In this document: positions 9,084 to 25,673 of the stretch, one piece after another
Numbering within the stretch: the stretch's first letter is position 1
Layout: every line of letters begins with the position of its first letter
Origin: Pseudomonadota bacterium
GTDB lineage: Bacteria; Bdellovibrionota_B; Oligoflexia; Silvanigrellales; Silvanigrellaceae
Assembly: GCA_039799905.1 (NCBI GenBank)
Contig: JBDLRP010000029.1
Coordinates: forward strand, 83,535 to 115,534
Direction of reading: 5' to 3'
Length of the DNA stretch: 32,000 nt
The notes under the pieces: generated by a model
The model's input: the letters and a program-made list of their open reading frames with translations, nothing else
The model's database searches: none
Told to the model about the DNA's origin: nothing
Program-made: the position numbers and the translations under genes

Positions 9084-9100
9084 GTGTTCACCTGTGCCTG

Positions 9101-9979: not shown

Positions 9980-10046
9980 GTATGAAAAAACATATCCATT
10001 TAGGAGAGCTTGAGTGTGCCACAAGCTGCTGGGCAGGGCCAATACG

Positions 10047-10490
10047 ATGAAATCGATTTCAAAAAACAGACGCGCGTTCCACGAATACGCAATCGAGGAT
10101 AAATATGAAGCGGGAATTGCGCTGCGTGGCTCGGAGGTCAAGATACTCCGCGAAGCTTCACCCAGTCTCGCAGAGAGTTATGCGATGATTCGTGAAGGAC
10201 AGGCATGGCTCATGAACCTCACCATTCCGACGCTCAAGCAGGCATCCTATCTCAACCACGCCGAGCGTCGTGATCGCCGCTTGCTGCTCAAGCGAAGTGA
10301 AATCAAAAAACTCGACGAAGCAACTCGACAAAAGGGATACACGCTGATTCCACTCGAGCTTTATTTCAACGATGACAACCGAGTAAAAATTGAACTTGCA
10401 CTGGCAAAAGGCAAGGCTGGCCACGACAAGCGTCAGTCGCAGAAAGAAAAAGACGCCAAGCGGGAAATGGATCGGGCCATCCGCCGCTGA
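10047..10490 (+). CDS. smpB: SsrA-binding protein
   Basis: NRRAFHEYAIEDKYEAGIALRGSEVKILREASPSLAESYAMI...IPLELYFNDDNRVKIELALAKGKAGHDKR...KREMDRAIRR. The Met at 10047 aligns with the canonical start. Confidence 0.96.
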   Translation: MKSISKNRRAFHEYAIEDKYEAGIALRGSEVKILREASPSLAESYAMIREGQAWLMNLTIPTLKQASYLNHAERRDRRLLLKRSEIKKLDEATRQKGYTLIPLELYFNDDNRVKIELALAKGKAGHDKRQSQKEKDAKREMDRAIRR

Positions 10491-12540: not shown

Positions 12541-13539
12541 CTACAAATCCACAACCCGGCTTTCTTGCGGCCTCAGCGGGGCGTACATCGGAGTATCGGT
12601 AGAACTGCCATCCGACTTAAATACCCGCAGCAGGTAGTTCACAGGTGGCAAGTAGCGGAGATCATAGCCACCATTTTTAACATCACCAATCGCTTCGGCC
12701 CGGTCGCATGAACTTGTGGTGTCAAACACATTCGCAACATTCACCGCTCCAGCAGGCAAATGACGCTGAAATTGCCCCACAGGCTCAAACTGCTTTACGT
12801 TCAACTTGTTGTGACGTCTTGATCCTCCCAAAATGTATGCGCAAATTCGTGTCACAGAAGGGTCGCCGACAGAGCCGTAAATACGCGCGGCAATTTTGCT
12901 TGGAACGACGTGAATCATCGGTTTCATCGCATAACGTCCGTCGGGTAGTTTAATCACAGAACGACGCAAATCGACGTGGATGATAATTTCGTTTTCGGAA
13001 TCCTCCTCAACGTCAAACTCCTCAATAATCGTGAATTCTTTTTGACCAAACGGACCGACGGGAAAATCTAGCCTGACGCGTTCGCCGGTCGACTTGCTCA
13101 CACCCTCAACCTCACTGTCCTGCGTCATAAAGAGTCTGAGACCTTCATAGGTACCTGCGGGAAGATTGGCTGCGAACGGCAAGACCTGGGTTTTTCCATC
13201 CGAGAGGGACAGCAGATCGACCTCTGTTTCTTTGTTCAAATCAAAATAGTAAAGCGACGAATCGGCGCAGGAACTGCGCGGATCTCTCAAACAGCGTCCT
13301 GTTCCCCCAGGGGCAAACGCAACAGCACGCACTGTCACATACAGGTTCGAAAAATCATCCACGGGTGCATCAGCCAGAGCCACCGTTACATTGCCCGGCT
13401 TGATAGGTTTTGTGGTTTGGGGATTGCCAGCCTGAACACGACAGCCGGATTCGCCCTGCATAAGAAACAACAGCAGCAAGAAAGTATATATTCTGCTGCG
13501 AAAGGCCGCGCCACTCTGAATTCCCAGCCGTTTTTTCAC
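12541..13539 (-). CDS. DUF4382-domain lipoprotein
   Basis: N-terminus FLLLLFLMQGESGCRV (lipobox-like). VTVALADAPVDDFSNLYVTVRAVAFAP...GTYEGLRLFM is DUF4382-like. Confidence 0.8.
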   Translation of the reverse strand: MKKRLGIQSGAAFRSRIYTFLLLLFLMQGESGCRVQAGNPQTTKPIKPGNVTVALADAPVDDFSNLYVTVRAVAFAPGGTGRCLRDPRSSCADSSLYYFDLNKETEVDLLSLSDGKTQVLPFAANLPAGTYEGLRLFMTQDSEVEGVSKSTGERVRLDFPVGPFGQKEFTIIEEFDVEEDSENEIIIHVDLRRSVIKLPDGRYAMKPMIHVVPSKIAARIYGSVGDPSVTRICAYILGGSRRHNKLNVKQFEPVGQFQRHLPAGAVNVANVFDTTSSCDRAEAIGDVKNGGYDLRYLPPVNYLLRVFKSDGSSTDTPMYAPLRPQESRVVDL

Positions 13540-14414
13540 TTCTTACCCCCCGCCGCCTTCGTTAACGGAAAGATCTGCATGGAAATCTGGACCACCCGGC
13601 TGCCATCCTGAGTTTCAGCGGGAGGATGATCTTGATAAATCCGTTGTGAGAAGTCTTGAATCTTCTCTTTAAGTCCATCAAATTGTTCTTGAGAAAGCGT
13701 AAGCACCAGAGAGTTAATGTCCCTCTCTTCGGCCGGGCAGTCGACGACCGCAGCACGTGCCAAATCCAAAAGCGTCTGATGATAGCGAACCATCGCCACT
13801 CCGGCGACCTCGGGACCTGTCGCCACGTCATTCTGCAGCGCAACGTAACGCTTCTGACTACCATCCAGTTTCGCATAACCAATCCTGCACAGCAGCTCCA
13901 GTCCACTGTTGATTTCGTCGAGAGTAATCTTCGGACGAATCCGTTCCTGAAACCACTGCGGATCATCTGTGCTACCAGCAAAGCTCATCAACTCGAGCAA
14001 GACGGCATGTGACCAGTGACTAAAAAACTCTAACTGCCACTTATCGAGCTCGTTGACGACAAGACTTCCCTTCAACGCAACCAGTTTGCGGAAAACCGAT
14101 TCACGAATGACCGGATCGCGTTCGTAGCTGTGCTCCACCAGCAATTCGAAATACTGACGCTCACGTCCGACGAGCCCCAGGCCGGCAATCATTCTTTTGC
14201 AAGTCTTTATAGTCAGCGGACGGCGGCCACGAATGAGGGCATTCATCAGGTTGTTGCGGCCGAGGCCTGCATCGAAGGCAAAATCGAAGTATGTGTATTC
14301 GGGCTCGGCATTTTTAAGACCAACGAACAGCGCCTCCAAATACACCCGGTAATCGAGGTACTCCGATGGACGGACGACTTCGTTGCAAATCTTTTTGATT
14401 TTTGCCTTGTCCAC
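13536..14414 (-). CDS. TIGR02147-family protein
   Basis: EYLDYRVYLEALFVGLKNAEPEYTYFDFAFDAGLGRNNLMNALIRGRRPLTIKTCKRMIAGLGLVGRERQYFELLVEHSY, the TIGR02147 pattern common in Bdellovibrionota/Fibrobacter-type genomes. Confidence 0.8.
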   Translation of the reverse strand: MDKAKIKKICNEVVRPSEYLDYRVYLEALFVGLKNAEPEYTYFDFAFDAGLGRNNLMNALIRGRRPLTIKTCKRMIAGLGLVGRERQYFELLVEHSYERDPVIRESVFRKLVALKGSLVVNELDKWQLEFFSHWSHAVLLELMSFAGSTDDPQWFQERIRPKITLDEINSGLELLCRIGYAKLDGSQKRYVALQNDVATGPEVAGVAMVRYHQTLLDLARAAVVDCPAEERDINSLVLTLSQEQFDGLKEKIQDFSQRIYQDHPPAETQDGSRVVQISMQIFPLTKAAGGKK

Positions 14415-14552: not shown

Positions 14553-16232
14553 CTACAGTGGCCGCGCCCCCATATATGCTCCGAGACCAGCGGAAATCAC
14601 CGAACGCTCCAATTCACTCATTCTCACCCTGACAAACTGCTCCTCAAGCATACGAGCAATTTTAACCTTGGATGCAATGTCAGATGGCTTTGCCGAGGCA
14701 TCGGCAATGGGACTCAGCAACGCTCTGAGTTCTGCCTGCAAATCGGGAGGAAGCGAACGTGCCATGGAGGGTTTGGTGTTCTTCATATGCGTTGCCGCAT
14801 TGCGTAAACCGTTCATCGCCAGCTTGAATTTCTCCCAAGCAGCGCCTCCCTTGGTGTTCAACTGCGTGATGATCTCTTTTTTTGTCAGTGCGTTTTTTGG
14901 CGCAATCTTCAATAGATTACGCCAGGCCTGCGGATTGAGAACATTGCCGACAATCGACTTGCTGGTGCTCAATGCGCGCGCGGTATGAAAAATACCCTTG
15001 CGTGCTACGTTGTAAACGTCTGCCGCAATCATCGTATAGTAGGCCGTCTGCATCGCAACTTTCAAAGGACTCATCGGCAAATCCTCGATCCAGCGACTCA
15101 GCGGAATGCTCACCGCCGTGAAGACACCGCCCGCCGCAACGGCAACTGCAAACGCACTTGAGGCCATGACTGTCGCCGCACTTCCGGCCGAGGTAATGCC
15201 CGCAGCAACAGCCGCCGAAGAGGATGCACCTGCCGTAAAATATCCGACTGTTCCTGCTGTTGCAGTCCACATGGAACCCATTGCTGCTCCAAGCGCAGGA
15301 AGCGACACGACACTGATGGCAATTGCAGCACCCACTCCGACCACAACCTTGCGCGCGCCGTCGACTTGCTGCTTCAACCAGACTTTTGAGAACTCCTCCA
15401 AGTCCAACGGACCCTTTTCCTCATCGGGAATTCCCAGCATTTGTTTTGCTATGCTCTGCTCATCGGAAGCTTCTTTACCTTCAAAAAACCGATCAGAAGG
15501 AAGAGGCGCCGGAAAGGCAACCTCATTAGCCCACGAATCCGGGCGATGGGTCACCATGACTGTGCGCGCGAGAGGCTTACGCCTGATGAAAATTGCAGAC
15601 AACTCCTGCCAGTTGCCTGTCACACGAATCGCCTGATAGAGCTTGCCGTCCGCTCCGCGGACAAAAACAAATTCAAACTGCCGGGTGTCGCCAAGGATAG
15701 TTGAACCCCAATTGGGGTCGGTTGTGAAACCTGAGCAGTCTTTTGGGTTGCTTGTACCCGTCCCATTTTGCCCCAGCAATGTATTCGGATCGCCCAAGGC
15801 AGGGGTAATCCTGCAACCAAAAAAACGCAGAGTGCTTGCGTCGTTCCCGCCTTCAGCAGCAATTTTCATCTCATTGAGCAGCGCGCCGACTTCCGAAGAC
15901 GGGAGAAACTCCTCGAACTGGCTTTTCTTTTGCCGCACCTGAACTTTGACCTTGCCGTTGCGCGCCCCCTCCAAATTTACCGCAAGCATATGCATCGCAG
16001 AACAGTCGGCCTTCAACTGATCTTCCGTATCAGGATCCAGCAGGCCAGCTTCATCTTCCGGTGAGCAGGCCTCACTGATTTTTTTCATCGTCTCGGGATC
16101 CAGGTTGTCGCGATCTTCAATACCATACGAACGGCTGTTCGACTTCTGCTTGATGCATCCCGACAGAGTGCCTGCAAGCACTGCAGACGTTGCAACACAA
16201 ATGAGAGCTCTTCTCCATATATGAAAGCTCAT
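14553..16232 (-). CDS. Large lipoprotein of unknown function with Gly/Ala-rich hydrophobic segment
   Basis: 559 aa with lipobox AGTLSGC. Aa ~296-378 is a long G/A/S/V-rich hydrophobic stretch. Starts 46 bp after the FliF/FliG-like gene on the same strand. Confidence 0.78.
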   Translation of the reverse strand: MSFHIWRRALICVATSAVLAGTLSGCIKQKSNSRSYGIEDRDNLDPETMKKISEACSPEDEAGLLDPDTEDQLKADCSAMHMLAVNLEGARNGKVKVQVRQKKSQFEEFLPSSEVGALLNEMKIAAEGGNDASTLRFFGCRITPALGDPNTLLGQNGTGTSNPKDCSGFTTDPNWGSTILGDTRQFEFVFVRGADGKLYQAIRVTGNWQELSAIFIRRKPLARTVMVTHRPDSWANEVAFPAPLPSDRFFEGKEASDEQSIAKQMLGIPDEEKGPLDLEEFSKVWLKQQVDGARKVVVGVGAAIAISVVSLPALGAAMGSMWTATAGTVGYFTAGASSSAAVAAGITSAGSAATVMASSAFAVAVAAGGVFTAVSIPLSRWIEDLPMSPLKVAMQTAYYTMIAADVYNVARKGIFHTARALSTSKSIVGNVLNPQAWRNLLKIAPKNALTKKEIITQLNTKGGAAWEKFKLAMNGLRNAATHMKNTKPSMARSLPPDLQAELRALLSPIADASAKPSDIASKVKIARMLEEQFVRVRMSELERSVISAGLGAYMGARPL

Positions 16233-16278: not shown

Positions 16279-18825
16279 TCATGCGACAACGGGGCTTGAA
16301 ATTTTAAAGCGCCTACTCATGTCTTTGATCGCGGTATCAGCCTCACTTGGCGAAACACGCGGGTACATCACTTCATTTATCTCGCTCAGATTGATTAATC
16401 CGCTCGCAGCAAAAGACCTGATTTTCGACAACACCTGCATCTCTGCCAGACGGAATGACTCACTGTCCAACCCGCGGATGTTTGAAGCGCTCTCGTTCCA
16501 GTCGTCGGCAATCTCATCGGGAGCTTTGCGCAGAACAAGTTGTCTTATTTTGTCTCGTGTGCCGGCAAGGAATGTCACCATCACCTGAGGTTCGAGTGCC
16601 AGGAATATTTCCAAAAGAAGCCCGTCGCTCAAATAGGCAAGGGTTTCCACACTGACAAAGCGGCTTCTCACCTGACGAGCAAGTTCTGGATTGGTGCGAT
16701 CCAGATTCTCAAGCATTTCAAGCTGGGAATCGCGTTCGCTCCGTTCCACAAGATCGATGATTACATCAGCGCCGCCAAGCATTTCTCCTCCGGCTGCTCC
16801 CATTTTTTCAATCTTTCTCTTGAGTGCCATAGCTACATTGAACAGGTATTCGCGCGGCAGCGTTTCCTTGATGCAGAGCTCGCGCAAGAGTGCGGACTTT
16901 AGACTGCCTTCAAACAACTCAAACACAGCCCTGCGCTTGTCTGTCGGTAATTGAGTCAGCACAACAGCCTGCGACCGCGCACTCTCATCGCAAATCAAAT
17001 CATAAATCTGTCTTCCTGAGAACGATTTCAAGAAGTCAAATGTATCCTGAGCACGTTGAGTCATCTGCCTGATTTTTCCGGCAGTCAGCTTGAGTTTGAG
17101 ACTTCTCAAAACCGAAAGCTGTTCACTGTCGCCGACAATTGGAGCGTTCACATGAATGTATTCAGCGAGCAGGGCGACTTCTTTTTTTACGTCATCATCG
17201 CCCAGCAAATCAAAGACCATTATCTCGCCAAGCACGGATACACATTTAGCCGAGAATTCAATTCCATCTTCCCTAAGAATGCGCGAAAAGACATCTCGTG
17301 CAATCTTCGGCTGAGAAATAAACATCTGAGTCAGCTCATCGCGCAGTGATTGGATATTCATGCGCTGGGCAACTTCATCGTTGATTCCACCGGCAGGAAT
17401 CACAACGGCACGCGGGCGAATCGGAAGTGCTGCAGGAACAGTTGTTACCGGAGGGCTTGCCCCAAATGCGGACTGACCAATCTCTGTGGCAGCAGGTATG
17501 GCAACATCATCTCTGAAGTCCGCCTGCGGAGCGTGAACACCACGCCCCTCGGAAATGAGATGCTGTACCTGTTTGCTGCTCAAAACATAACGGAGCCCAA
17601 GCGCTCCAACCAACAGAAGAACGGCAAAGACGCCTGCAAACAAAAGGACCCTGTCTTTTGTCCAAAAGTCCTGAAGTCCGTTCTCGCTGAGCGTTTTTTG
17701 GGTATCCGACAACTCCTTGGTCTGTGAGGACTCCACAGACTGCGAAGAATTGCTCTTCTCCGAAAGTGACTCTCTGTTCCGCTCGCGCTCCTTCTCACTT
17801 TGCCTTTCCCGCTCACTCTCGCGGCTGATACTGTCGCGCTCGCGGATTACTTCTTTTGTATTTGCGAATTCGCGGAATATTCTCAGTGAACGGCCCAATC
17901 TTTCCAGACCCCAAGGATCGTTGCGCAATTCGTCGGAATCCTTTTGCAACTCGGAGGCAGCCTTTGGCATTGAGGTCAGTTTGACGTTCAAGATTCCCTG
18001 ACCATAGTTGTCGAGGTGATCACGCAAGAGATTTTCAATCTGCAGCCGGCGGTTGTCTTCCATCTCGGATGCAAGAGTCAGACTCGCAGTAACACCCGAA
18101 ACCACGAGCGCATGCTTGCTTTCACGAATGACAACAGCACGTCGCATCAGTGATGACTGGGCGTCCTCAAGAGGAATCCGCACCGTTTTAACCTCAAGCG
18201 TCTGCAATCTGCATTCAAGCGGACAAAAATCAGATAAAATTCTTTCAATGGAACTCTTCACTAAGCTGACTGCCTCCGATTTAGCCTCTGCCTCTGCCCG
18301 GATGACGTGAGGAGGGTCTGGAAGTGCGGCATTTGTGAATTCAATTTCTAACGGAACACCATAGCGTCGTGACGCTCGGAGCAGGACATCGCGTATCCGC
18401 TCGATATTGCTCTTTCCCAGTCTGTTATCAATCAAAACCTCGGCAACCGCACTGCTCACCAAAAAAGTTCTTGGTACGACTGTTGCGCTTTCGAAACCAA
18501 GTGAAGCCGAATTTGTGTCAAAGAGCTCGCGGCTTTCAACATCCACACCCAAAATCGTACAACCATCCGGACAATACTTCGTCACGTCCGACTGGAGTTT
18601 TGTTCGAATGCGCTGAATTGTTTCTTCGTCGAATCTGAGCTTTTCAGGGTCGGCGGGGGCCATGGATTGGAACGCCTGAATTTGCTGCGATGCAAAAGCG
18701 GTTTGATAGAGCGAAAGTTGCGTCATGAGGGCAACAAGCGAGGCACAAAAAAAGCTAGCCACGGAGAGTGTAGAACTCCTCCCCATCACTTTCGCCTTTT
18801 TATATGCAACTCGACAAATCATCAC
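16279..18825 (-). CDS. FliF-like/FliG-like fusion protein (candidate non-flagellar rotor)
   Basis: 848 aa. Signal peptide, then two tandem domains (aa ~65-172 and ~187-290), each with a Cys pair (CPDGC, CPLEC) followed by a FliF ring-building-like segment. Then an R/E/S-rich linker, one TM (aa ~393-415), a FliF-tail-like segment (LRDELTQMFISQPKIARDVFSRILRED), FliG-middle-like (FDFLKSFSGRQIYDLICDESARSQAVVLTQLP) and FliG-C-like (GGADVIIDLVERSERDSQLEMLENLDRTNPELARQVRSRFVSVETLAYL...FRLAEMQVLSKIRSFAASGLI). Confidence 0.8.
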   Translation of the reverse strand: MMICRVAYKKAKVMGRSSTLSVASFFCASLVALMTQLSLYQTAFASQQIQAFQSMAPADPEKLRFDEETIQRIRTKLQSDVTKYCPDGCTILGVDVESRELFDTNSASLGFESATVVPRTFLVSSAVAEVLIDNRLGKSNIERIRDVLLRASRRYGVPLEIEFTNAALPDPPHVIRAEAEAKSEAVSLVKSSIERILSDFCPLECRLQTLEVKTVRIPLEDAQSSLMRRAVVIRESKHALVVSGVTASLTLASEMEDNRRLQIENLLRDHLDNYGQGILNVKLTSMPKAASELQKDSDELRNDPWGLERLGRSLRIFREFANTKEVIRERDSISRESERERQSEKERERNRESLSEKSNSSQSVESSQTKELSDTQKTLSENGLQDFWTKDRVLLFAGVFAVLLLVGALGLRYVLSSKQVQHLISEGRGVHAPQADFRDDVAIPAATEIGQSAFGASPPVTTVPAALPIRPRAVVIPAGGINDEVAQRMNIQSLRDELTQMFISQPKIARDVFSRILREDGIEFSAKCVSVLGEIMVFDLLGDDDVKKEVALLAEYIHVNAPIVGDSEQLSVLRSLKLKLTAGKIRQMTQRAQDTFDFLKSFSGRQIYDLICDESARSQAVVLTQLPTDKRRAVFELFEGSLKSALLRELCIKETLPREYLFNVAMALKRKIEKMGAAGGEMLGGADVIIDLVERSERDSQLEMLENLDRTNPELARQVRSRFVSVETLAYLSDGLLLEIFLALEPQVMVTFLAGTRDKIRQLVLRKAPDEIADDWNESASNIRGLDSESFRLAEMQVLSKIRSFAASGLINLSEINEVMYPRVSPSEADTAIKDMSRRFKISSPVVA

Positions 18826-19478
18826 TGATAAACCCTTATAACAACCCTTCTGTTTGCCGCGCGTGCCTGTTCAAGTGCATCGCCCGCTTTTCCACTGATG
18901 GAAATTTTGGGCCTCGAAGAACCAAATCCTGCAACGCTCATCCTTTCCTGCGGGACCTTGAGTTCACGCATTTTGTTCAGCAGTGCGACTCCGCGCGCGC
19001 TGCTGAGCGCCCAATTCACCTCATCATTCCCGACATCGTCAGTATGTCCCTCAAAACTGAGGAAATATTTGCGATCTGTCTTTTGGAGAATCTGCAAAAT
19101 TGGCATTGCTTCCTTTGCCGCAAAGTCACTTAACTCATCGCTTCCCTGACGAAACAGAACACCACCTAAAAACTCAACCATCAGACCTGACATTCCCAGC
19201 TCGGTGACGACCGAGCTCTGCAAGCCCCTGTTGGCAATCTCGAAATCAATCTGTTTTTTCAATTCATCAAGACTGTCGGTCCGCTGGCGGGTCATCACCT
19301 GTGATACGACATCAAATTTCTGCGCGCTGACCTGCGACATCGACAGCATCAACACGAAGAGTGCGAGCATATTTGTTGTCAGGTCGGCATATGAGGTCAG
19401 CCACAATGAGTCTTTGTTTTTCTTTTTGCTGCGCTTTGAAATTCCGGCGACAGAATTGAAGAATGATTCCTGAGTCAT
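18822..19478 (-). CDS. motB: MotB-family stator protein with OmpA-like peptidoglycan-binding domain
   Basis: LWLTSYADLTTNMLALFVLMLSMS with Asp at residue 32, and FEGHTDDVGNDEVNWALSSARGVALLNKM...VAGFG...ANRRVVIRV. Confidence 0.92.
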   Translation of the reverse strand: MTQESFFNSVAGISKRSKKKNKDSLWLTSYADLTTNMLALFVLMLSMSQVSAQKFDVVSQVMTRQRTDSLDELKKQIDFEIANRGLQSSVVTELGMSGLMVEFLGGVLFRQGSDELSDFAAKEAMPILQILQKTDRKYFLSFEGHTDDVGNDEVNWALSSARGVALLNKMRELKVPQERMSVAGFGSSRPKISISGKAGDALEQARAANRRVVIRVYQ

Positions 19479-19484
19479 TTTTCG

Positions 19485-20315
19485 CTACCCTCCCTGAGAC
19501 GCGCGGGTGCGCGGCGGGAGATCGCGATTGCCTTCACTCTGGGAGAGACCGGCCGCAGTGCGACCCTGTGTTTGTTCCTGCGAGTAGGTGCTCAAAACAT
19601 CTCTCAGGTGTGCTTGGGATTTCTTTTCCTTGAGCAGGAGGACTCCCTCAAGAATCATCAAATCAAGCTGCAAAGTCTTTTCCGCATAAATCGCGATTTT
19701 TTCAGAGATGGGTGTGTACACAACGGTACCGAGAATTATTCCATAGAGGGTTGTCAGCAGGGCTATCGCCATAGATGGGCCGAGTTTGGCTGGCTCCGAC
19801 ATGTGTGAGAGCATTTGGACAAGTCCAACGATCGTTCCGAGAAGTCCCATGCCGGGACACAGTTTTCCCAAACTTTCAAAAAGACTCACCGCATGGGAAA
19901 ACTGAGTTTGCTTGGTATTTATTTTTGCAGTCAGGTTGTGCCTGATTTCGTCGGCTGTAAAGCTCGATAGAATGAGCGTCACGCCATCCCTGAAGAGCTG
20001 ATTGCTGATTTGCGGTTTGTATTTTGCGAGAATTCCTATTCCCTCTGTCCGCACTGCGTAACTGAGCGTCGACAGCTGATTTGAAATTTGGTTCATTTCT
20101 TTTTTTTGATTCAGGAACGCAAGACTCAACAGTGTGCGAAGCCCTGAAAAGAAATCGATGAAACTGTGCGACATAAGCATTACGGCAATCGGCGCGACTC
20201 CGAGCAGGACGGCCGAGGCCGGCTCCCAGAAGCCTTCGAAATTTTCGCCGCCATGAAAAATCAGATACCAAAGTGACCACGCAAAGGCTGTAAGGCCGAC
20301 AAGAATGCTGATCAT
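19485..20315 (-). CDS. motA: MotA-family stator protein
   Basis: 276 aa, four predicted TM segments, LGKLCPGMGLLGTIVGLVQML and LGPSMAIALLTTLYGIILGTVVYTPIS. Confidence 0.92.
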   Translation of the reverse strand: MISILVGLTAFAWSLWYLIFHGGENFEGFWEPASAVLLGVAPIAVMLMSHSFIDFFSGLRTLLSLAFLNQKKEMNQISNQLSTLSYAVRTEGIGILAKYKPQISNQLFRDGVTLILSSFTADEIRHNLTAKINTKQTQFSHAVSLFESLGKLCPGMGLLGTIVGLVQMLSHMSEPAKLGPSMAIALLTTLYGIILGTVVYTPISEKIAIYAEKTLQLDLMILEGVLLLKEKKSQAHLRDVLSTYSQEQTQGRTAAGLSQSEGNRDLPPRTRASQGG

Positions 20316-21088
20316 GGCACCCTCCCGTCGACTGCCTTTGTGCTCTGCGCAGGTTGATCGATCCTCTTTTGCCGGAGACCTTCGCGGCTTGAAATAACTC
20401 TTCGCAGTTGCTCGATCTGCGCGAGCAGCCGAGGATTCGGCTCGAGGTCAAACGCCTTTTCATACGCGGAAAGCGACAAATCTGACTGACTCAGTCTGAG
20501 ATGAAGAGTCCCCTTCATGGTCCAAAGCAATGCTGATTTGGAGAAATGCAGCAGCAGTTCGTTTGTCTCAACAAGAGCATCCTCGTAACGTTTTGATGAA
20601 AACAGCTGACGTATTTTTTTTGTTGATTCAGTGAAGCTCGGGCTGAGCGGTCTTCCGTCCTCCTCGCTGACTCCCAAAACCCGATCAAAATCTCCAAGCC
20701 TTTTCTCGAATTCACCGGCACCGCTCACGCCTGCGATTTCGGCGTCCGTTCTTTGCAAGCGAGCTCTCTCGCGGGATTGTGCAATGGGATCGCCTGTCAC
20801 ATCTCCCGGCTCAAGTCCCATCACAGATGCGGGTAGTTTGACCTCAGTAAGATCCGAACCTCGTTCTCCGGTGAGCACCTGCTCGACAGTTTCCCGTTGA
20901 GCACGTTCGCTTGCTTCCCGCGAGGCAGGAGGGGGTGCAATTCGAAATTCCGTTGCTGGATTTTTGTTGTCCTGCAACACGCGCTGCTGTTGCGCTGCCG
21001 GTGTTTCCGCAGGCGTCGACGTACACGAGAAATGTGCGACTCCCACAAACAGGAGGCACAGTTTAAAACTGGAGGCCGAAGGCAACAT
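20312..21088 (-). CDS. TPR-containing lipoprotein
   Basis: From the Met at 21088: MLPSASSFKLCLLFVGVAHFSCTST (lipobox). C-terminus has TPR-like YEDALVETNELLLHFSKSALLWTMKGTLHLRLSQSDLSLSAYEKAFDLEPNPRLLAQIEQL. ATGA overlap with motA. Confidence 0.82.
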   Translation of the reverse strand: MLPSASSFKLCLLFVGVAHFSCTSTPAETPAAQQQRVLQDNKNPATEFRIAPPPASREASERAQRETVEQVLTGERGSDLTEVKLPASVMGLEPGDVTGDPIAQSRERARLQRTDAEIAGVSGAGEFEKRLGDFDRVLGVSEEDGRPLSPSFTESTKKIRQLFSSKRYEDALVETNELLLHFSKSALLWTMKGTLHLRLSQSDLSLSAYEKAFDLEPNPRLLAQIEQLRRVISSREGLRQKRIDQPAQSTKAVDGRVP

Positions 21089-22271
21089 CAGCAGCCAATC
21101 CTCCAGGCGTTGTGTATTTATATCGATTGCGAACACTGATGGTCGTCGGAAGGCTGTATCCAACACCGGCGTCAATTAGAAATCGCTGACCCAAACGCAT
21201 TGTTGCGCCGCCTCTCAACGAAAAGCAGGCATATCCTTTGGAGACAATCGTTCCAGCACCCAATTCCAGACCGGTGACGGTGCCATCAACGCTGGAGGAA
21301 TCCTTCGAAAAGAAGTGTCCATAAATCGCGTAAAGTCCCAAAGCTCGCGTGAAGGGGAGAATGATTTCCGTGTTGCTGCCTTCTTTGAATTCAGCACTGG
21401 AAGCAGGGTCGCCGACAATCTCCGGATAGTCGGAAATCAGCACAGATGGCGCTAAAATCCCGCTCAGTCTTGTGCCAACTTCATCCCGCCCAGCATTGAA
21501 TTTTTCAGAAAACCGCAGATTGATTCCAAGCATGTTCGCGCTGTCTTTGACATTCGGAACAAGATGCCAACCGATTGTCGTGGCAAAGAGATATTTCGAT
21601 TTTTTGGCTGTTTCGACTTCAATCTGCTGCTTGGTTTCGGAGTCGCGCTGCTCCATCTTCTGCCTGTAGATATTTTCAGTGTTGTAAAGCTTGCTCCAGA
21701 GCAACTCTTTGGACTTGGAATCGAACACATGGAATCCCAAAATCATGCTTGTTTCTTGATAAATCAGCGTCATATCAACCCAAGCTTCAACCCCGAGCTG
21801 ACTTGCGATTGCGTCCAGTTCCTGCGGATTGTTTATGGGCGTGGTCATTACCAGCCGTCCGTTTTCAACGACCGTTCGACGCACCCGACAATTGGTGCAC
21901 TGCAAAACCTTGGTGCCGCTGTGCTTGCGGAATGCATCCGAGATCTGTGTTTCAAGATAGCTCTCATATGTGCGCGGTATGCCCTCGCCCAAGGCAACAC
22001 GACGGATCGCCACGTTTCGCAGAGAATTTAGTGCTTTGGCCCGTAGATCAAATGAAAACTCGTTCACAAGATCTTGCAGAACTTCATTGAAACTCTTCAC
22101 CTGCTCGCCTTGACCTTGCGTCATCAAAGCGGCTTGTGACTTTGCGGGTGGCGATTCGACGGCAAATGCATACGTCGTCGGTGCGAGCACGACAGTGAGC
22201 GCAAACGCGTGAGCGAGCGCCCGAAAAACGAGCTGTGCTCTCCTTATTTTCTGCCGAAAAATGTCAGGCAT
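21063..22271 (-). CDS. Outer-membrane beta-barrel-like protein with FlgO/CsgG-like N-terminal domain
   Basis: Signal-peptide-like N-terminus. NVAIRRVALGEGIPRTYESYLETQISDAFRKHSGTKVLQC...LDAIASQLGVEAWVDMTLIYQETSMILGFHVFDSKSKELLWSKLY, then alternating beta segments ending in a terminal Phe (VAFGLQF). Confidence 0.7.
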   Translation of the reverse strand: MPDIFRQKIRRAQLVFRALAHAFALTVVLAPTTYAFAVESPPAKSQAALMTQGQGEQVKSFNEVLQDLVNEFSFDLRAKALNSLRNVAIRRVALGEGIPRTYESYLETQISDAFRKHSGTKVLQCTNCRVRRTVVENGRLVMTTPINNPQELDAIASQLGVEAWVDMTLIYQETSMILGFHVFDSKSKELLWSKLYNTENIYRQKMEQRDSETKQQIEVETAKKSKYLFATTIGWHLVPNVKDSANMLGINLRFSEKFNAGRDEVGTRLSGILAPSVLISDYPEIVGDPASSAEFKEGSNTEIILPFTRALGLYAIYGHFFSKDSSSVDGTVTGLELGAGTIVSKGYACFSLRGGATMRLGQRFLIDAGVGYSLPTTISVRNRYKYTTPGGLAADVAFGLQF

Positions 22272-22375: not shown

Positions 22376-23017
22376 TCAGAGCGAGTAGGTCAGCTTCGCA
22401 AGAGACTCTTTGCCGGTTGCGACAACGAGTTCCCAAGATTTGCGCGCTTCGTCGCCCTGAAAATCTTCGTCGTAAGTTTCGAGCAAGTCCTGAATTCCCT
22501 CTGCATCTTCAAGAAGGCTCAGGGCGTTGACAGCCGAGCGGAAATAACGCGCAGCTTCGTTCGGGTGACGCTTCACTTTGAGGCTGAGACGTCCCATTTC
22601 TTCATACCACTGCGCCTTCTCTTCGGGAGTCGCAACTTCGCCCGTCTCGCCCAGCATATATATGTAGGTGTTCAACGCACGAGTGTTGTCTTTGGAAGCC
22701 ATCAGCTCGGAAATCTTGGGCAGGAGAGTTTGAATCGTCTTGCGGGCCTTAGCTTGTTCTTTGCGTTTGTCCTCGAGGCTCTCGGATGAGTGCTTTTCGA
22801 GAATTCTCTCACAATGGGCGCGCAGTAGACGCAGGTCTTCGGGAAGAACCTGATCGCGCTCTGTTTCGAGTGTGGGGTTGATTTGGCGAAACAGAGACAA
22901 GAGTTCCGCCGGAGAAACGTGAAGGTAGCCGGCGAGAATCTGAATTGCCCACGGGCGATCGTCGGGCCAAATCCGCTCTGCACGTTCCATCTGCCGAATC
23001 AACTCATGCATATCCAT
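22376..23017 (-). CDS. Uncharacterised helical-repeat (TPR-like) protein
   Basis: 213 aa, helix-rich: LNTYIYMLGETGEVATPEEKAQWYEEMGRLSLKVKRHPNEAARYFRSAVNALSLLED. No firm family. Confidence 0.72.
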   Translation of the reverse strand: MDMHELIRQMERAERIWPDDRPWAIQILAGYLHVSPAELLSLFRQINPTLETERDQVLPEDLRLLRAHCERILEKHSSESLEDKRKEQAKARKTIQTLLPKISELMASKDNTRALNTYIYMLGETGEVATPEEKAQWYEEMGRLSLKVKRHPNEAARYFRSAVNALSLLEDAEGIQDLLETYDEDFQGDEARKSWELVVATGKESLAKLTYSL

Positions 23018-23137: not shown

Positions 23138-24016
23138 TCAATTTTGAGACCCAGTAAAATTCTTTCGAAGTCGCAGGAAAAACCTGATTAAATGGTAGCA
23201 GAGCAGCAGAAGGACCACCAGCCAAACAGCGGAAAGCGGGCCCTGATCCAAAAAACTGACTGGTTGGCTTGACAAATAATTTCTTTCCCTGTTGACTAGA
23301 CGGCCCGCTGCGAGAGCCTCACCCTCTTGAGCCGCTTTGCGCACATCCCCGAGCAGGTTGTTCCAGAAAACTTCAAACCCGGCCGAAGCGAATTCTACCG
23401 GACCATTCTGATACGCAAGCAGCTCACCGTCTCGGTCGAGCAGAAAAAAAGCCGGGTGCGCGACCACAGACAAGCGCTCACTTAGAACTCCCTGAGGATC
23501 CCAAATAATACCCTTCAGGCTCCTCAGGCCCGTCGCCCGATACTCCAAGCCCAACTCAGGAAGCGTGGGCCAATCGCTCACAACTATGCGCGCACAGACC
23601 GTTGGCGCCAACGCACCCGCGACTGGAGGATGCGCTTCCTGCAAACGCTCAAGCGCCCGGGCACCTGCACGACAATTTTCACACTCAGGCAAGGTAAAAT
23701 AGAGCGCAGTGAGGTCGGCAGGGCGCCCTCCCTCCTTGTCACAAAACAACGACTCAGGCGCAGGCGCAGCGTCGGCATCTCGCTCACCGACAACAGGGAA
23801 TTCAAAATTTGGAACGAACACCTTGCTATCGAGGGTGTGCAGTCCGGAGGCCTTGGCCATCTGAGAGAGAGTTGTTAATCCCATACCGTCTCCAAAATGA
23901 GACACATACCCTTCGAGGTGATGCTTTCCTGAGACACTAGCTATCCCCCCTTCTCTGAGTAATTGCAACGGATGTTCCAAATCATAGGCTCTGTCGCCGA
24001 ATTTTAAAATTGGCAC
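23138..24016 (-). CDS. Membrane-anchored thioredoxin-like protein (start uncertain)
   Basis: PADLTALYFTLPECENCRAGARALERLQ (CxxC), cis-Pro-type HPAFFLLDRDGELLAYQNGP, C-terminal TM VWLVVLLLLCYHLIRFFL. The ORF is open to 24274, but its 5' part overlaps a better-supported plus-strand ORF. Candidate starts are GTG 24016 or ATG 23884. Confidence 0.65.
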   Translation of the reverse strand: MPILKFGDRAYDLEHPLQLLREGGIASVSGKHHLEGYVSHFGDGMGLTTLSQMAKASGLHTLDSKVFVPNFEFPVVGERDADAAPAPESLFCDKEGGRPADLTALYFTLPECENCRAGARALERLQEAHPPVAGALAPTVCARIVVSDWPTLPELGLEYRATGLRSLKGIIWDPQGVLSERLSVVAHPAFFLLDRDGELLAYQNGPVEFASAGFEVFWNNLLGDVRKAAQEGEALAAGRLVNRERNYLSSQPVSFLDQGPLSAVWLVVLLLLCYHLIRFFLRLRKNFTGSQN

Positions 24017-24070
24017 GGTATTTGCTTTGAGACTTCCGAAATCGAACGCACTGTCATAGGAGAGAGAACG

Positions 24071-24325
24071 ATGGAAACACTCGTGAACACAATGAACGCT
24101 ATCCGACAGCAGGCTGCACAGAGCACTCAACCACTGAATAACAAGGTTCTCGCAGAAAATCTTTTCCGTGACCTTCGCCTTCAGGGACTGAAAGACAAAG
24201 ACATCGTCAGTCTGTCTTCCGAACTGATTGCTCAACTCACAAACGACATCAAAGTCAGAGCAGAAAAAGTTCACACCGGTGAAACTCCTGCCATCAGCTC
24301 CGAAAAGCTCACCCGCACTCGCTAA
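24071..24325 (+). CDS. Small uncharacterised helical protein (84 aa)
   Basis: Good Shine-Dalgarno (AGGAGAGAGAACG-ATG, 24058-24073) and soluble helical composition (NKVLAENLFRDLRLQGLKDKDIVSLSSELIAQLTNDIKVRAEK). Confidence 0.6.
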   Translation: METLVNTMNAIRQQAAQSTQPLNNKVLAENLFRDLRLQGLKDKDIVSLSSELIAQLTNDIKVRAEKVHTGETPAISSEKLTRTR

Positions 24326-24333: not shown

Positions 24334-24360
24334 AAAAAAAAACCCGCCCAACGGGCGGGT
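24334..24360 (-). terminator. Rho-independent terminator for the histone H1-like gene
   Basis: ACCCGCCC-aac-GGGCGGGT (24342-24360) with an A-run at 24334-24342, which is a U-tract on the minus transcript. Confidence 0.88.
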
Positions 24361-24362
24361 CG

Positions 24363-24387: not shown

Positions 24388-24801
24388 TTAGCCTGCCTTG
24401 TGCAGGGGTGTGACCTTAGCCACAACCTTGCGAGCTTTGCGAGCTGCAGGCTTCTTGGCTTTCTTTGCCTTCTTCTTAGCAGCTGGCTTCTTAGCGGCAG
24501 CCTTCTTAGCTGTAGCCTTCTTAGCCTTCTTCTTGGCAGCTGGCTTCTTGGTAACAGCCTTCTTGGCGGTTGCCTTCTTAGCCTTGCGCTTAGCTGGCTT
24601 CTTAGCAGCAGCCTTCTTAGCGGTAGCTTTCTTGGCAGTAGCCTTCTTAGCCTTCTTCTTCGCAGCTGGCTTCTTAGCCTTTGCAGCAACTTTCTTCTTC
24701 GCCTTGCCGCCTACTTTTTTCTTAGCTGCGCGGACTGTCTTCTTCTTCTTTGCACGCTTCGGTTTTGCGTGCGATACTTCAGCTTTAGTTTCAACTGTCA
24801 T
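24388..24801 (-). CDS. Histone H1-like Lys/Ala-rich protein
   Basis: 137 aa with repeated KKPAAKKKAKKATAKKAAA-type units and a basic N-terminal region. Confidence 0.88.
   Translation of the reverse strand: MTVETKAEVSHAKPKRAKKKKTVRAAKKKVGGKAKKKVAAKAKKPAAKKKAKKATAKKATAKKAAAKKPAKRKAKKATAKKAVTKKPAAKKKAKKATAKKAAAKKPAAKKKAKKAKKPAARKARKVVAKVTPLHKAG
24430..24720. repeat. Degenerate tandem coding repeat (~57-bp superunit, ~4 copies)
   Basis: Recurring AKKPAAKKKAKKATAKKA(T/A/V) peptide units; + strand DNA shows recurrent ccttcttagc(c/g)...cttcttagcagc strings. Confidence 0.75.
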
Positions 24802-25118
24802 TTAGACGTTCCCTTCTTCAGACTGCGACGCTCGGAGACAAAGCTTGTGTCCCCACGCCTGAATTGTGAAACCAATTCACTCGACCGCAACGTCTCCCGA
24901 CGTGACCAGCGACAGCGTCTTCCCGACGCAGAGCACCGCACATTCATGCGATACCAATTTTTCGTCATGTCTCAGTATAACTTGAGTCGAAGTTCAGCTT
25001 TTTTTAGCACGTCACTTTTTTGGAGCTTCTGGTGAACTTTTTGACACAACACACAACTTTTTCACCTCTCATCGCACAACTCGGATCGCAGAGTTTTGAG
25101 CTCCAGGCGCGAACAAAT

Positions 25119-25673
25119 ATGAATTCCGGAAACTCCGTCGACGGTTCTTTTCCAACTCTGCTCGCGATCGTTCTGGTCACTTTCGTTCTCGTCCTTTTCC
25201 TTATGGCGACCCTTTGGCCGAGAGAAAAGTCCGACTCCATACATTCACGGCAGAGACAATTCGGACGGGTCGACGGACTGTTCTTCAAAATCCAGACAGC
25301 GCTTCTCGACAGCGAAGAATCCAGCAGATATCTCGCAGGACAACTCTCGAGTCCCGCTCTTTTGCAAGGGATTCTCCTCATGAAAAGTCAGTCCCTGACA
25401 CTGGTGTCTTTGAGCGTCGGCGGCTGTGCCTTTGTCTCGCCCACGCCACTGAAGAAAGGTTCAGTGCTTCTTCTCCAACTCGGCTCACTGCCCGACTTTC
25501 CCAAAGAAAATCTCATTGTTGCATGCAAAGTTGTGTGGTCGCGGCACGACAAGGGAAAGCACGGCGGAGTGGAGAGTGCCGGTTGTAAATTTGTTTTTCC
25601 GCAGGGAGCCGCAGGTCCCGACGAGCCCCTCAAAAACTACATCACATTCCTGATGGATGAACCGGTGAGCTAG
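25119..25673 (+). CDS. PilZ-domain-like membrane protein
   Basis: TM near the N-terminus (TLLAIVLVTFVLVLFLMATLWP), then LTLVSLSVGGCAFVSPTPLKKGSVLLLQLG...NLIVACKVVWSR...GVESAGCKFVF. This matches the PilZ D/NxSxxG pattern only in degenerate form. Start set at the internal Met. Confidence 0.65.
   Translation: MNSGNSVDGSFPTLLAIVLVTFVLVLFLMATLWPREKSDSIHSRQRQFGRVDGLFFKIQTALLDSEESSRYLAGQLSSPALLQGILLMKSQSLTLVSLSVGGCAFVSPTPLKKGSVLLLQLGSLPDFPKENLIVACKVVWSRHDKGKHGGVESAGCKFVFPQGAAGPDEPLKNYITFLMDEPVS

What the first reader, a model, noticed from the sequence alone, without database searches (positions are those of the whole stretch)
16279..22271. Candidate non-flagellar rotary machine: OMP, TPR lipoprotein, MotA, MotB, FliF/FliG-like fusion
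Five consecutive minus-strand genes are packed with 4-bp ATGA overlaps (20312-20315, 18822-18825), a ~26-bp overlap and a 6-bp gap. Together they encode an ion-driven stator (MotA/MotB), a plausible rotor in one chain, an outer-membrane beta-barrel-like protein and an OM-type lipoprotein. No FliM/N, export apparatus, rod, hook or filament gene lies nearby. The set resembles a self-sufficient stator-rotor-outer membrane device. It could drive gliding, surface adhesin movement, envelope remodelling or cargo movement. Function is inference; gene content and coupling are directly visible.
Basis: partly seen in the sequence, partly recalled or inferred. Interest (0 to 1): 0.93.

Follow-up and report, generated by a model that had tools for sequence, protein, structure and literature searches.

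The report
Stator plus fused FliG rotor module
Five tightly packed genes encode a flagellar-type ion-driven stator, a single protein that joins a ring-building periplasmic domain to the flagellar rotor protein FliG, and two outer-membrane proteins. This set is conserved only in the little-studied class Oligoflexia, with no other flagellar genes nearby, so it may be an undescribed motor that works apart from the flagellum.

Summary
Five minus-strand genes (16279-22271) are translationally coupled. They encode an OM protein with an 8-stranded barrel, a lipoprotein with one weak TPR, MotA, MotB, and an 848-aa protein. That protein has a signal peptide, two RBM-like domains, one TM helix and a FliG-like cytoplasmic region.

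Minor corrections: the MotB/fusion junction reads GTGATG, not ATGA. FliF likeness is fold-level only.

The fusion family has about 100 clusters at 50% identity. Every named member is an Oligoflexia MAG. All five genes recur in Silvanigrellales. They recur in a distant subgroup in a different order (OMP-TPR-fusion-MotA-MotB), which argues for a functional module. A third subgroup carries the fusion alone.

The FliM-binding EHPQR motif is lost. FliG R281 is replaced by Glu/Asp family-wide. The partner MotA keeps the R90 equivalent but replaces the E98 equivalent with Ala flanked by Lys/Arg, which suggests a private, charge-swapped stator-rotor interface.

No flagellar gene lies within 10 kb in any context examined. 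I could not check whether the same genome holds canonical fliF/fliG. Rotation and output are inferred. No paper describes the system. The closest natural precedent is the stator-less Chlamydiaceae FliF-FliG fusion.

The parts
21063..22271 (-). Outer-membrane protein (402 aa): signal peptide, conserved periplasmic domain (~60-225, invariant CTNC at C125/C128), C-terminal 8-stranded beta-barrel (~226-402) ending in Phe
   Evidence: Foldseek hits to OmpA TM domain, Ail, NspA and OmpX at E 1e-4 to 2e-3; model pLDDT 63. No Pfam, NCBIfam or PDB sequence hit. Family HMM finds orthologues in L022, L023 and distant L024 (4.6e-48).
20312..21088 (-). Lipoprotein (258 aa from the conserved Met at 21088) with one weak C-terminal TPR; conserved middle motif KLPASVMGL...DPI..SRE
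   Evidence: Lipobox A-[AVT]-[AG]-C conserved in 10 of 12 orthologues. TPR_1 E=0.0044, below the cut-off. The same weak TPR sits at the same place in the distant L024 orthologue. HMM hit to L024 at 1.9e-18. 26-bp overlap with the OMP gene.
19485..20315 (-). MotA/PomA-type stator A subunit (276 aa)
   Evidence: PF01618 2.8e-21. NF006527 PomA 1.1e-41, below the equivalog cut-off. Full-length match to solved MotA1 and PomA at 1e-33 to 2e-31. The R90 equivalent (R89) is kept. The E98 equivalent is Ala96 flanked by K97/K99. The P173 and P222 equivalents are kept. ATGA overlap with the upstream gene.
18822..19478 (-). MotB-type stator B subunit (218 aa): TM with the conserved Asp (YADL), plug, OmpA-like peptidoglycan-binding domain
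   Evidence: MotB_plug 1.6e-15 and OmpA 5.3e-13. MotD and MotB equivalog models hit at 5e-24 and 1e-21 but below their cut-offs. PDB MotB hits. The Asp32 equivalent is conserved in all orthologues, including group B.
16279..18825 (-). 848-aa fusion: signal peptide, two RBM-like domains, conserved helix, acidic linker, one TM helix, FliG-like N/M/C region
17974..18648 (-). Periplasmic tandem alpha-beta-beta-alpha-beta (ring-building-motif-like) domains, aa 60-166 and 172-284, each with an invariant C-P-x-x-C after helix 1
   Evidence: AF2 secondary-structure order H-E-E-H-E twice, with block pLDDT mostly 76-90 but 60-63 at aa ~101-120 and ~221-230. Foldseek FliF MS-ring 6scn_A 5.1e-4 and 8z5v_A 3.1e-3, PrgK 2y9j_Y 2.4e-2. 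No sequence or profile hit to FliF or the PDB. Cys invariants listed.
17773..17958 (-). Most conserved periplasmic segment: helix with DPWGLEKLGRALKVFREFANTKEI (aa 290-351)
   Evidence: Invariant columns R301-E329. The related motif DPYGLEKLR..FR.LAGTKEI is present in group C members.
17578..17658 (-). Single transmembrane helix (aa 390-416, VLLFAGVFAVLLLVGALGLRYVL)
   Evidence: Direct reading; AF2 helix 390-416.
16318..17385 (-). Cytoplasmic FliG-like region (aa 481-836): FliG_N-like helices, FliG_M (605-677), Gly-Gly linker (G684/G685), FliG_C (706-813) with reversed torque-helix charges
   Evidence: Pfam above gathering scores. PDB profile hit 3hjl 3.9e-16 over FliG residues 117-327. Foldseek alignment to full-length FliG of 323 columns at 2.2e-8. 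Residue mapping.

Best explanation
This is a self-contained stator-rotor module specific to the class Oligoflexia and derived from flagellar motor parts. It operates apart from the flagellum.

Shown: MotA/MotB are flagellar-type stator subunits with the proton/sodium-binding Asp, the plug and a peptidoglycan anchor. The 848-aa protein is exported by a signal peptide and carries two RBM-type periplasmic domains. It crosses the inner membrane once and ends in a FliG N/M/C-like region. These three genes, together with an OM lipoprotein and an OM barrel protein, are inherited as a set.

Inferred: the fusion oligomerises through its RBM and FliG parts into an inner-membrane ring. MotA5B2-type units, fixed to peptidoglycan, push on its FliG_C domain through a private electrostatic interface and turn the ring or apply torque to it. 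That interface has an acidic rotor helix (Glu/Asp at the R281 position, Asp at the R297 position) facing a MotA loop that keeps Arg89 and has Lys in place of the canonical Glu.

The lipoprotein and the barrel protein complete a trans-envelope assembly. They act either as an OM-anchored scaffold that positions the stators, as PflA/PflB, FlgP and MotX/Y do in elaborated flagellar motors, or as the load that is driven.

The output is not known. My best guess is that it energises an envelope or cell-surface process such as surface motility. It is probably under cyclic-nucleotide control: a cNMP-binding protein is encoded in or beside the cluster in other subgroups, and a PilZ protein is encoded nearby here.
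For: - **Component identities:**
- **Translational coupling:**
- **Family spread:** the N-terminal domain profile found 100 clusters at 50% identity in 1.84 billion proteins. Most full-length hits are 680-990 aa; roughly a third of the listed hits are shorter (94-585 aa), probably fragments. All ten tested carry FliG_M and FliG_C.
- **Taxonomy:** every named member is from Silvanigrellales or Oligoflexales, or is a mislabelled MAG.
- **Module conservation:** group A loci L001-L014, L022, L023 and the P0065 context have OMP-TPR-MotA-MotB-fusion. In distant group B, L024 holds all five in the order OMP-TPR-fusion-MotA-MotB, confirmed by family HMMs at 4.6e-48, 1.9e-18, 2.9e-30 and 1.8e-29. The P0136 and P0127 contexts are similar.
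- **No flagellar neighbours:** none in the window or in any of these contexts.
- **Loss of the FliM-binding motif:** EHPQR becomes E-S-[AP]-R...E.
- **Charge reversal on the rotor:** R281 is Glu/Asp in 49 of 50 members. R297 is Asp/Glu in groups A and C. The A. aeolicus HMMER alignment gives the same register.
- **Matching change on the stator:** MotA keeps the Arg but lacks the Glu, which is Ala flanked by Lys/Arg, in three independent alignments. The canonical pairs R90/D288-D289 and E98/R281 are stated in PMC12505986 and PMC7564593.
- **Order-level flagella:** cultured Silvanigrellales are motile and carry flagellar gene sets. Spirobacillus has all structural flagellar genes. Silvanigrella aquatica has multiple motA copies (PMC7386786, PMC12321486, PMC8067016).
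- **Fusions can work:** engineered FliF-FliG fusions give working motors (cited in PMC4768692).
Against: - No experiment of any kind has been done. All members come from uncultured MAGs.
- Ring formation was not modelled, because no multimer prediction was available.
- The AF2 model has moderate confidence (mean pLDDT 66, pTM 0.29).
- FliF-likeness has no sequence support.
- I could not verify that the genome of this window also holds canonical fliF, fliG and fliM.
- Group C members (Oligoflexales MAGs) have the fusion with no MotAB, OMP or TPR gene within 10 kb. The partnership is therefore not obligatory in cis.
- The charge-swap argument rests on alignments at 15-20% identity. In group B it is less clear: K264 is kept, and the MotA loop of L024 aligns ambiguously.
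- No driven load has been identified.
Confidence: 0.55

Rival explanations
1. It is part of a true flagellum. In these lineages the fusion replaces or duplicates FliF+FliG as the MS-ring/rotor of a second or modified flagellar motor. The other flagellar genes lie elsewhere, and the OMP and TPR proteins are motor accessories such as FlgO/FlgP or PflA/PflB.
For: FliG_M and FliG_C are above Pfam thresholds, and the stator is flagellar-type and full length. Engineered FliF-FliG fusions rotate (PMC4768692). Flagellar genes are often scattered. TPR and OM accessory proteins are known in elaborated motors (own knowledge). JGI annotates members as FliG.
Against: Only two RBM-like domains are present, with no RBM3 or beta-collar to hold the rod or export gate. 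The EHPQR FliM-binding motif is lost. The torque-helix charges are reversed, which would not match a canonical MotA. TIGR00207 scores 42.9 against a cut-off of 226.7. No flagellar gene is adjacent in more than 8 independent contexts. The order is reported to have complete canonical flagellar sets.
Confidence: 0.15
2. It is not a rotary machine. The MotAB-like channel and the FliG-like domain form a PMF-dependent transducer or regulator. It might be a trans-envelope energiser or sensor acting as Tol-Pal or TonB do, or a decoy or brake that titrates stator units under cyclic-nucleotide control, without continuous rotation of a ring.
For: All non-flagellar 5:2 motors known so far (ExbBD, TolQR, GldLM, AglRQS, ZorAB) act on non-FliG partners and mostly energise OM processes (own knowledge; PMC12505986). 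OM lipoprotein and OM barrel partners recall Pal/OmpA-type envelope systems. cNMP-binding and PilZ neighbours suggest regulation. Group C has the fusion without a nearby stator.
Against: The stator has the full flagellar-type cytoplasmic domain rather than the condensed TolQ/ExbB type: PomA 1e-41 against TolQ 2e-5. The torque-helix region of FliG_C is among the most conserved parts, with invariant K767, A768, P769, W776, D787 and AEMQV 794-798. RBM-type domains are typical of ring formers. PADLOC finds no ZorA.
Confidence: 0.2
3. The five genes are neighbours only by inherited synteny in one clade and do not work together.
For: Wider synteny around the cluster is also conserved in Silvanigrellales: PilZ, the 213-aa gene, prepilin peptidase and UvrD. 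Adjacency within that order alone is therefore weak evidence.
Against: Overlapping or nearly abutting reading frames. The same five families are found together after rearrangement in distant group B. The OMP and fusion families appear to be confined to the same narrow set of MAG and metagenome sources (taxonomy of fusion loci).
Confidence: 0.05

Closest known systems
Bacterial flagellar motor core (MotA5B2 stator, FliG rotor on the FliF MS-ring)
   Same: Flagellar-type MotA/PomA with its full cytoplasmic domain. MotB with Asp, plug and peptidoglycan-binding domain. FliG M and C domains with the Gly-Gly linker. Periplasmic RBM-type domains on the membrane partner.
   Different: Rotor and membrane ring are one polypeptide with a single TM helix and a cleavable signal peptide. 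Only two RBM-like domains are present, with no RBM3 or beta-collar. The EHPQR motif is lost. R281 and R297 are acidic, and MotA E98 is replaced by Ala flanked by Lys. No FliM/FliN, export gate, rod, hook or filament genes are nearby. The genes sit with an OM barrel protein and an OM lipoprotein.
Chlamydiaceae FliF-FliG fusion (Bergeron 2016, PMC4768692)
   Same: A natural fusion of a shortened FliF-like periplasmic region (two RBMs) to a FliG-like cytoplasmic domain, found outside a complete flagellar system.
   Different: The chlamydial protein is about 330 aa, keeps two TM helices and has only the FliG M region. No MotAB accompanies it, and it is proposed to relate to the injectisome. The Oligoflexia protein has FliG N/M/C-like parts, including the torque domain, and a dedicated stator.
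Engineered FliF-FliG fusions of Salmonella and Vibrio (PDB 8z4d/8z4g; Francis 1992 and Thomas 2001 as cited in PMC4768692)
   Same: They show that a covalent FliF-FliG chain can assemble a ring and rotate. 8z4d is hit by the family profile at 3.2e-6.
   Different: They are laboratory constructs of canonical proteins inside complete flagella.
SctJ/PrgK/EscJ inner-membrane ring of injectisomes
   Same: Secreted N-terminus, two RBM domains, one C-terminal TM helix. Weak Foldseek hit to 2y9j_Y.
   Different: SctJ is lipidated, has no cytoplasmic FliG domain, is not driven by a stator, and encloses an export gate.
Stator scaffolds of elaborated flagellar motors (Campylobacter PflA/PflB TPR proteins and the FlgP disk; Vibrio MotX/MotY, FlgO/FlgP/FlgT) - own knowledge
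   Same: TPR and OM-anchored proteins encoded with, or acting on, MotB-type stators.
   Different: No detectable sequence relationship was found or tested here. Those proteins decorate a complete flagellum.
Non-flagellar 5:2 motors (ExbBD-TonB, TolQR-Pal, GldLM, AglRQS-Glt, ZorAB)
   Same: An ion-driven stator-like unit coupled to envelope or OM components outside the flagellum.
   Different: None of them uses a FliG-type partner. Their A subunits lack the flagellar torque-generating cytoplasmic domain (PMC12505986). ZorA models do not match.

Membership tests
Flagellar stator A subunit (MotA/PomA) | MotA_ExbB channel domain and full-length similarity including the cytoplasmic torque-generating domain | tested here: met
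   PF01618 2.8e-21. Aligns over residues 2-248 to solved MotA1 and 5-247 to PomA.
Flagellar stator A subunit (MotA/PomA) | Conserved charged pair facing FliG (E. coli R90 and E98) | tested here: not met
   The Arg is kept (R89). The Glu position is Ala96, with K97 and K99 nearby, in all group A orthologues.
Flagellar stator A subunit (MotA/PomA) | Conserved prolines (E. coli P173, P222) | tested here: met
   Both align to Pro in the window. The P222 equivalent is Ser in L013 and L014.
Flagellar stator A subunit (MotA/PomA) | Score above an NCBIfam equivalog cut-off | tested here: not met
   The best model is PomA NF006527 at 142.9 bits against a cut-off of 341.
Flagellar stator B subunit (MotB/PomB) | TM helix with the ion-binding Asp (E. 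coli D32), plug, OmpA-like peptidoglycan-binding domain | tested here: met
   YADL is conserved. MotB_plug 1.6e-15 and OmpA 5.3e-13. Equivalog cut-offs are not reached.
FliG | FliG middle and C-terminal domains | tested here: met
   PF14841 32.4 bits (cut-off 25) and PF01706 31.6 bits (cut-off 23.3). 3hjl 3.9e-16. Foldseek 2.2e-8.
FliG | FliG N-terminal domain that binds the FliF C-terminus | tested here: inconclusive
   No FliG_N hit was listed for this protein in the Pfam scan. The Foldseek alignment to full-length FliG spans 323 columns of a 321-residue target, and aa 481-590 is helical and the most conserved region family-wide.
FliG | EHPQR motif (FliM binding) | tested here: not met
   E614 is kept. 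H is replaced by S, P by A or P, Q by R, and R160 by E.
FliG | Torque-helix charges K264, R281, D288, D289, R297 | tested here: not met
   In the window these positions are A, E, E, S and D. R281 is acidic in 49 of 50 family members.
FliG | Equivalog score (TIGR00207) | tested here: not met
   42.9 bits against a cut-off of 226.7.
FliF (MS-ring protein) | Sequence or profile similarity to FliF/YscJ | tested here: not met
   No Pfam or NCBIfam hit on aa 1-480. PDB profile search with the N-terminal domain gave 0 hits at E<=10. hhalign against E. coli FliF gave probability 0.6%.
FliF (MS-ring protein) | RBM (alpha-beta-beta-alpha-beta) ring-building domains | tested here: inconclusive
FliF (MS-ring protein) | Third RBM with beta-collar, and two TM helices | tested here: not met
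   Only two units, then a long helix. The N-terminal hydrophobic segment is followed by A-x-A sites, so it is probably a cleaved signal peptide (direct reading).
Ring-forming rotor (functional class) | Oligomerises into a ring that stators engage | not testable with these tools
Zorya anti-phage system | ZorA plus ZorB with ZorC/D or ZorE | tested here: not met
   Only generic ZorB (MotB-like) hits appear. There is no ZorA or other Zor hit.
TPR lipoprotein | Lipobox Cys and TPR repeats | tested here: inconclusive
   The lipobox is conserved in 10 of 12 orthologues. The single TPR is below the Pfam cut-off in the window (E=0.0044) and in L024 (E=0.0007).
Small OM beta-barrel (OmpA-TM/OmpX/Ail class) | 8 antiparallel strands, C-terminal aromatic residue, signal peptide | tested here: met
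   Strands span 226-401. Foldseek E values of 1.3e-4 to 2e-3. The protein ends ...AFGLQF. Model confidence is moderate.
Non-flagellar status | The same genome has a separate canonical fliF/fliG/fliM set | not testable with these tools
Order-level literature supports it.

The most novel reading that the evidence does not exclude
This is a previously unrecognised, flagellum-independent rotary nanomachine of Oligoflexia. A ring of RBM-TM-FliG fusion subunits is turned by its own charge-swapped MotAB stators. The ring is coupled through the periplasm to an OM lipoprotein and an OM barrel protein, and it powers an envelope or cell-surface process. It would be the first FliG-type rotor known outside the flagellum.
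Probability: 0.4. Interest if true: 0.92.

Novelty: new variant of a known kind. Interest (0 to 1): 0.8.

Why it matters
FliG is known as a torque-receiving rotor only in the flagellum. Every other ion-driven 5:2 motor described acts on a different partner.

A conserved module would show that the flagellar torque-generating core has been reused on its own. The module pairs flagellar-type MotAB with a FliG domain fused to a ring-building periplasmic domain, alongside outer-membrane partners. It lacks a switch complex, export apparatus and axial structure.

It offers a minimal natural stator-rotor system for structural and biophysical study. The natural counterpart of the charge-reversal changes (FliG R281 acidic, MotA E98 lost) bears on how stator-rotor specificity evolves and how paralogous motors avoid cross-talk. 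It may also uncover an unknown envelope function or motility mode in Silvanigrellales and Oligoflexales. That group includes a Daphnia pathogen and human wound isolates.

Tried and rejected
- **FliF homology by sequence:** the PDB profile search with the whole protein hit only FliG. The search with the N-terminal domain alone found nothing. hhalign against E. coli FliF gave probability 0.6%. I therefore claim only fold-level RBM likeness.
- **MotA-MotB fusion artefact:** I briefly saw a 494-aa MotA-MotB fused ORF in L007, L009 and L011. Direct translation shows a stop codon in each. It was an artefact of my ORF-extension script and is withdrawn.
- **Zorya or other defence system:** rejected.
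- **The 213-aa, 559-aa and 378-aa neighbours as core parts:** not supported. They are absent from group B, and the 559-aa gene is absent from distant group A loci.
- **OMP and 213-aa protein against PDB sequences:** nothing found.
- **Rfam and tRNA scans of the window:** nothing found.
- **Promoter and terminator scan:** not above shuffled expectation, apart from one strong terminator at 24361-24341, outside the cluster.
- **Literature:** searches for a described natural MotAB plus FliG-fusion system found none.
- **Organism names for distant members:** mostly unavailable.

Full report
**Observation**

The five minus-strand ORFs are present as described. I read the junctions directly.
- The lipoprotein stop and the motA start share ATGA at 20315-20312.
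- motA ends in TAG, followed by 6 nt and the motB ATG, with GGAGG upstream.
- The OMP stop (21065-21063) lies 26 bp inside the lipoprotein gene when that gene starts at the conserved Met codon at 21088.
- The motB stop and the start of the large gene read GTGATG. The overlap is GTGA (GTG at 18825) or a single base (ATG at 18822, which gives the 847-aa protein NCBI annotates). It is not ATGA.
- No terminator-like site stronger than chance lies inside the cluster.

**What the five proteins are**

- **MotA (276 aa).** It has the MotA_ExbB domain (2.8e-21). It is far closer to flagellar PomA, MotP and MotA models (1e-41 to 8e-34) than to TolQ (2e-5) or ExbB (0.013), but it sits below every equivalog cut-off. 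It aligns end to end with solved MotA1 and PomA (1e-33 to 2e-31).
- **MotB (218 aa).** It has the plug, the OmpA-like domain and the channel Asp.
- **The 848-aa protein.** It carries FliG_M and FliG_C above Pfam gathering scores. It matches Aquifex FliG residues 117-327 at 3.9e-16 with the family profile.
- **AF2 model of the 848-aa protein.** Built from 24 homologues, mean pLDDT 66. It shows an N-terminal hydrophobic helix and then two alpha-beta-beta-alpha-beta units (aa 60-166 and 172-284, block pLDDT mostly 76-90, with dips to 60-63 in two inter-strand loops). These are followed by a long conserved helix, a disordered acidic/Ser-rich linker, one TM helix (390-416), a variable linker and an all-helical region (481-836).
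- **Fold matches for that model.** Foldseek aligns the helical region to full-length FliG (323 columns, 2.2e-8). It aligns the periplasmic part weakly to the FliF MS-ring (6scn_A 5.1e-4, 8z5v_A 3.1e-3) and to PrgK (2.4e-2).
- **No sequence link to FliF.** None was found by Pfam/NCBIfam, by PDB profile search or by hhalign. The N-terminal hydrophobic segment is followed by A-x-A sites across the family. It is therefore probably a cleaved signal peptide, and the mature protein is single-pass. In layout it resembles SctJ more than FliF.
- **The 402-aa protein.** It has a signal peptide and a highly conserved periplasmic domain with an invariant CTNC. Its C-terminal region is predicted as eight strands ending in Phe, and it matches the OmpA TM domain, Ail, NspA and OmpX at about 1e-4.
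- **The lipoprotein.** It has a conserved lipobox and one sub-threshold TPR.

**Distribution and context**

The word-indexed search found only 29 close relatives of the fusion. Fourteen genome loci were found. Those carrying an informative name are Silvanigrellales or Oligoflexia MAGs, and the rest carry only broad or mislabelled MAG names.

A profile of the periplasmic domain alone was run against 1.84 billion representatives. It found 100 clusters at 50% identity. Most full-length hits are 680-990 aa; about a third of the listed hits are shorter fragments. All ten that I scanned carry FliG_M and FliG_C. The fusion architecture is therefore the family, not an accident of one genome.

Named members of the more distant branch are Oligoflexales MAGs, and NCBI calls one of them 'FliG C-terminal domain-containing protein'. 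I distinguish three context types; the labels are mine.
- **Group A.** Silvanigrellales, including L022, L023 and the P0065 contig. The order is (213-aa gene)-OMP-lipoprotein-MotA-MotB-fusion.
- **Group B.** L024, P0136 and P0127. The order is OMP-lipoprotein-fusion-(cNMP-binding protein)-MotA-MotB. Family HMMs built from group A recognise the L024 proteins at 4.6e-48 (OMP), 1.9e-18 (lipoprotein), 2.9e-30 (MotA) and 1.8e-29 (MotB).
- **Group C.** Oligoflexales MAGs, loci L017-L021. The fusion has no MotAB, OMP or lipoprotein gene within 10 kb. It often sits next to a DsbA-like gene and/or a cNMP-binding gene.

Keeping the same five families together through a rearrangement is the strongest evidence that they work together. 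No flagellar gene is adjacent in any of these contexts or in the window.

**Interface residues**

I aligned the family with E. coli FliG, fetched from MG1655.
- The EHPQR FliM-binding motif is reduced to its Glu.
- K264 becomes Ala and D289 becomes Ser.
- R281 becomes Glu/Asp and R297 becomes Asp.
- Across 50 members of all three groups, the R281 position is acidic in 49.
- The HMMER alignment to Aquifex FliG gives the same register.

In the partner MotA, the R90 equivalent is invariant. The E98 equivalent is Ala with Lys/Arg on both sides, and this holds in the HMMER alignments to MotA1 and PomA and in two MAFFT alignments.

The canonical contacts are R90 with D288/D289 and E98 with R281 (PMC12505986; PMC7564593). 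The natural pattern therefore looks like a compensated charge swap. Such a swap would make this stator-rotor pair private and poorly compatible with canonical flagellar partners. This is an inference from low-identity alignments. In group B it is less clean.

**Mechanism**

- **Shown:** the component identities, the topology elements, the operon-like packing, the conserved module, the loss of the FliM-binding motif and the altered charges.
- **Inferred:**
  - The fusion forms an inner-membrane ring through its RBM-like and FliG-like parts.
  - Peptidoglycan-anchored MotA5B2 units apply torque to its FliG_C.
  - The lipoprotein and barrel protein either scaffold the stators from the outer membrane or are the driven load.
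  - Cyclic-nucleotide binding proteins modulate the system (cNMP-binding in groups B and C, PilZ near the window cluster).
- **Possible redox dependence:** conserved Cys motifs occur in the fusion (two CPxxC) and in the OMP (CTNC). DsbA-like or thioredoxin-like genes are nearby. Together these suggest that assembly depends on disulfides.
- **Unknown:** the physiological output.

**Comparison with what is known**

No paper in the library describes this system.
- The nearest natural precedent is the Chlamydiaceae FliF-FliG fusion (PMC4768692). It is much smaller, has only the FliG M region and has no stator.
- Engineered FliF-FliG fusions show that such chains can rotate.
- Silvanigrellales isolates are motile and have flagellar genes. 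Spirobacillus has all structural flagellar genes. Silvanigrella aquatica has multiple motA copies. All of this is consistent with an extra, separate stator-rotor set, but I could not verify it in this genome.

**Verdict**

I file the system as a new variant of a known kind: a flagellar torque core redeployed without the flagellum. There is a substantial chance (about 0.4) that it is a truly new rotary machine.

**Limits**

- The structure models have moderate confidence.
- No multimer modelling was possible.
- No whole-genome census was possible.
- All members are uncultured.
- One analysis artefact, an apparent MotA-MotB fusion, was caught and withdrawn.

Noticed in passing
window 22376-23017 (-): A 213-aa ORF lies 104 nt upstream of the OMP gene. 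It is 98% identical in protein to orthologues in genomes whose MotA, MotB and fusion proteins are only 55-75% identical, and it is still 90% and 83% identical in the most distant Silvanigrellales loci. Third codon positions are only ~55% identical, so this is extreme purifying selection rather than recent transfer. There is no Pfam, NCBIfam or PDB match. It is adjacent to the cluster throughout group A but absent from group B.
   Followed up: partly
window 23138-24274 (-); L017:8837-9841; L018:8864-9841: Only the C-terminal ~248 aa of the 378-aa ORF (about 23138-23884) is conserved as a reading frame in other loci. That part has a G-C-E-N-C motif with a marginal Thioredoxin_8 hint (E=0.21) and a C-terminal TM helix. 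In group C a clear DsbA-like gene sits immediately upstream of the fusion gene. The fusion has two invariant CPxxC motifs and the OMP has an invariant CTNC. Together these suggest disulfide-dependent assembly.
   Followed up: partly
L021:12284-12862; L017:12196-12714; P0136 contig; window 25020-25673 (+): A small cNMP-binding protein is encoded directly after the fusion gene, or between it and motA, in groups B and C. In the window and in group A a PilZ-domain protein is conserved a few genes away on the other strand (also in L013 and L023). These are possible second-messenger regulators of the module.
   Followed up: partly
window 14553-16232 (-): A 559-aa predicted lipoprotein (LSGC lipobox) has an Ala/Gly-rich hydrophobic central region and lies 46 nt downstream of the fusion gene. 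It is 65-80% identical in close relatives but absent next to the cluster in L013, L022, L023 and L024. It has no family match.
   Followed up: partly
window 19479-19487; L007:9270-9420; L009:2714-2864; L011:6704-6854: motA and motB are in the same reading frame, separated only by a stop codon and a few codons. An apparent read-through fusion ORF in three loci was an artefact of my script; each has a stop codon.
   Followed up: yes
window 24388-24801 (-) and 24341-24361: A 137-aa Lys/Ala-rich repeat protein (KKAAAKK-type, reminiscent of H1/AlgP-like proteins) is followed by the only strong intrinsic-terminator-like hairpin in the region.
   Followed up: no
window 13536-14414 (-): A member of the TIGR02147 ('Fsuc_second') / DUF4423 paralogous family (1e-55), conserved in synteny downstream of the cluster in close relatives.
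   Followed up: no
window 4705-10141; L023:10488-14312: Prepilin peptidase (A24), a UvrD helicase and a metallo-beta-lactamase-fold gene lie near the cluster both in the window and in the distant group A locus L023. Large-scale synteny around the module is therefore old. In L017 a pilMNOPQ cluster lies about 2.5 kb from the stand-alone fusion.
   Followed up: no
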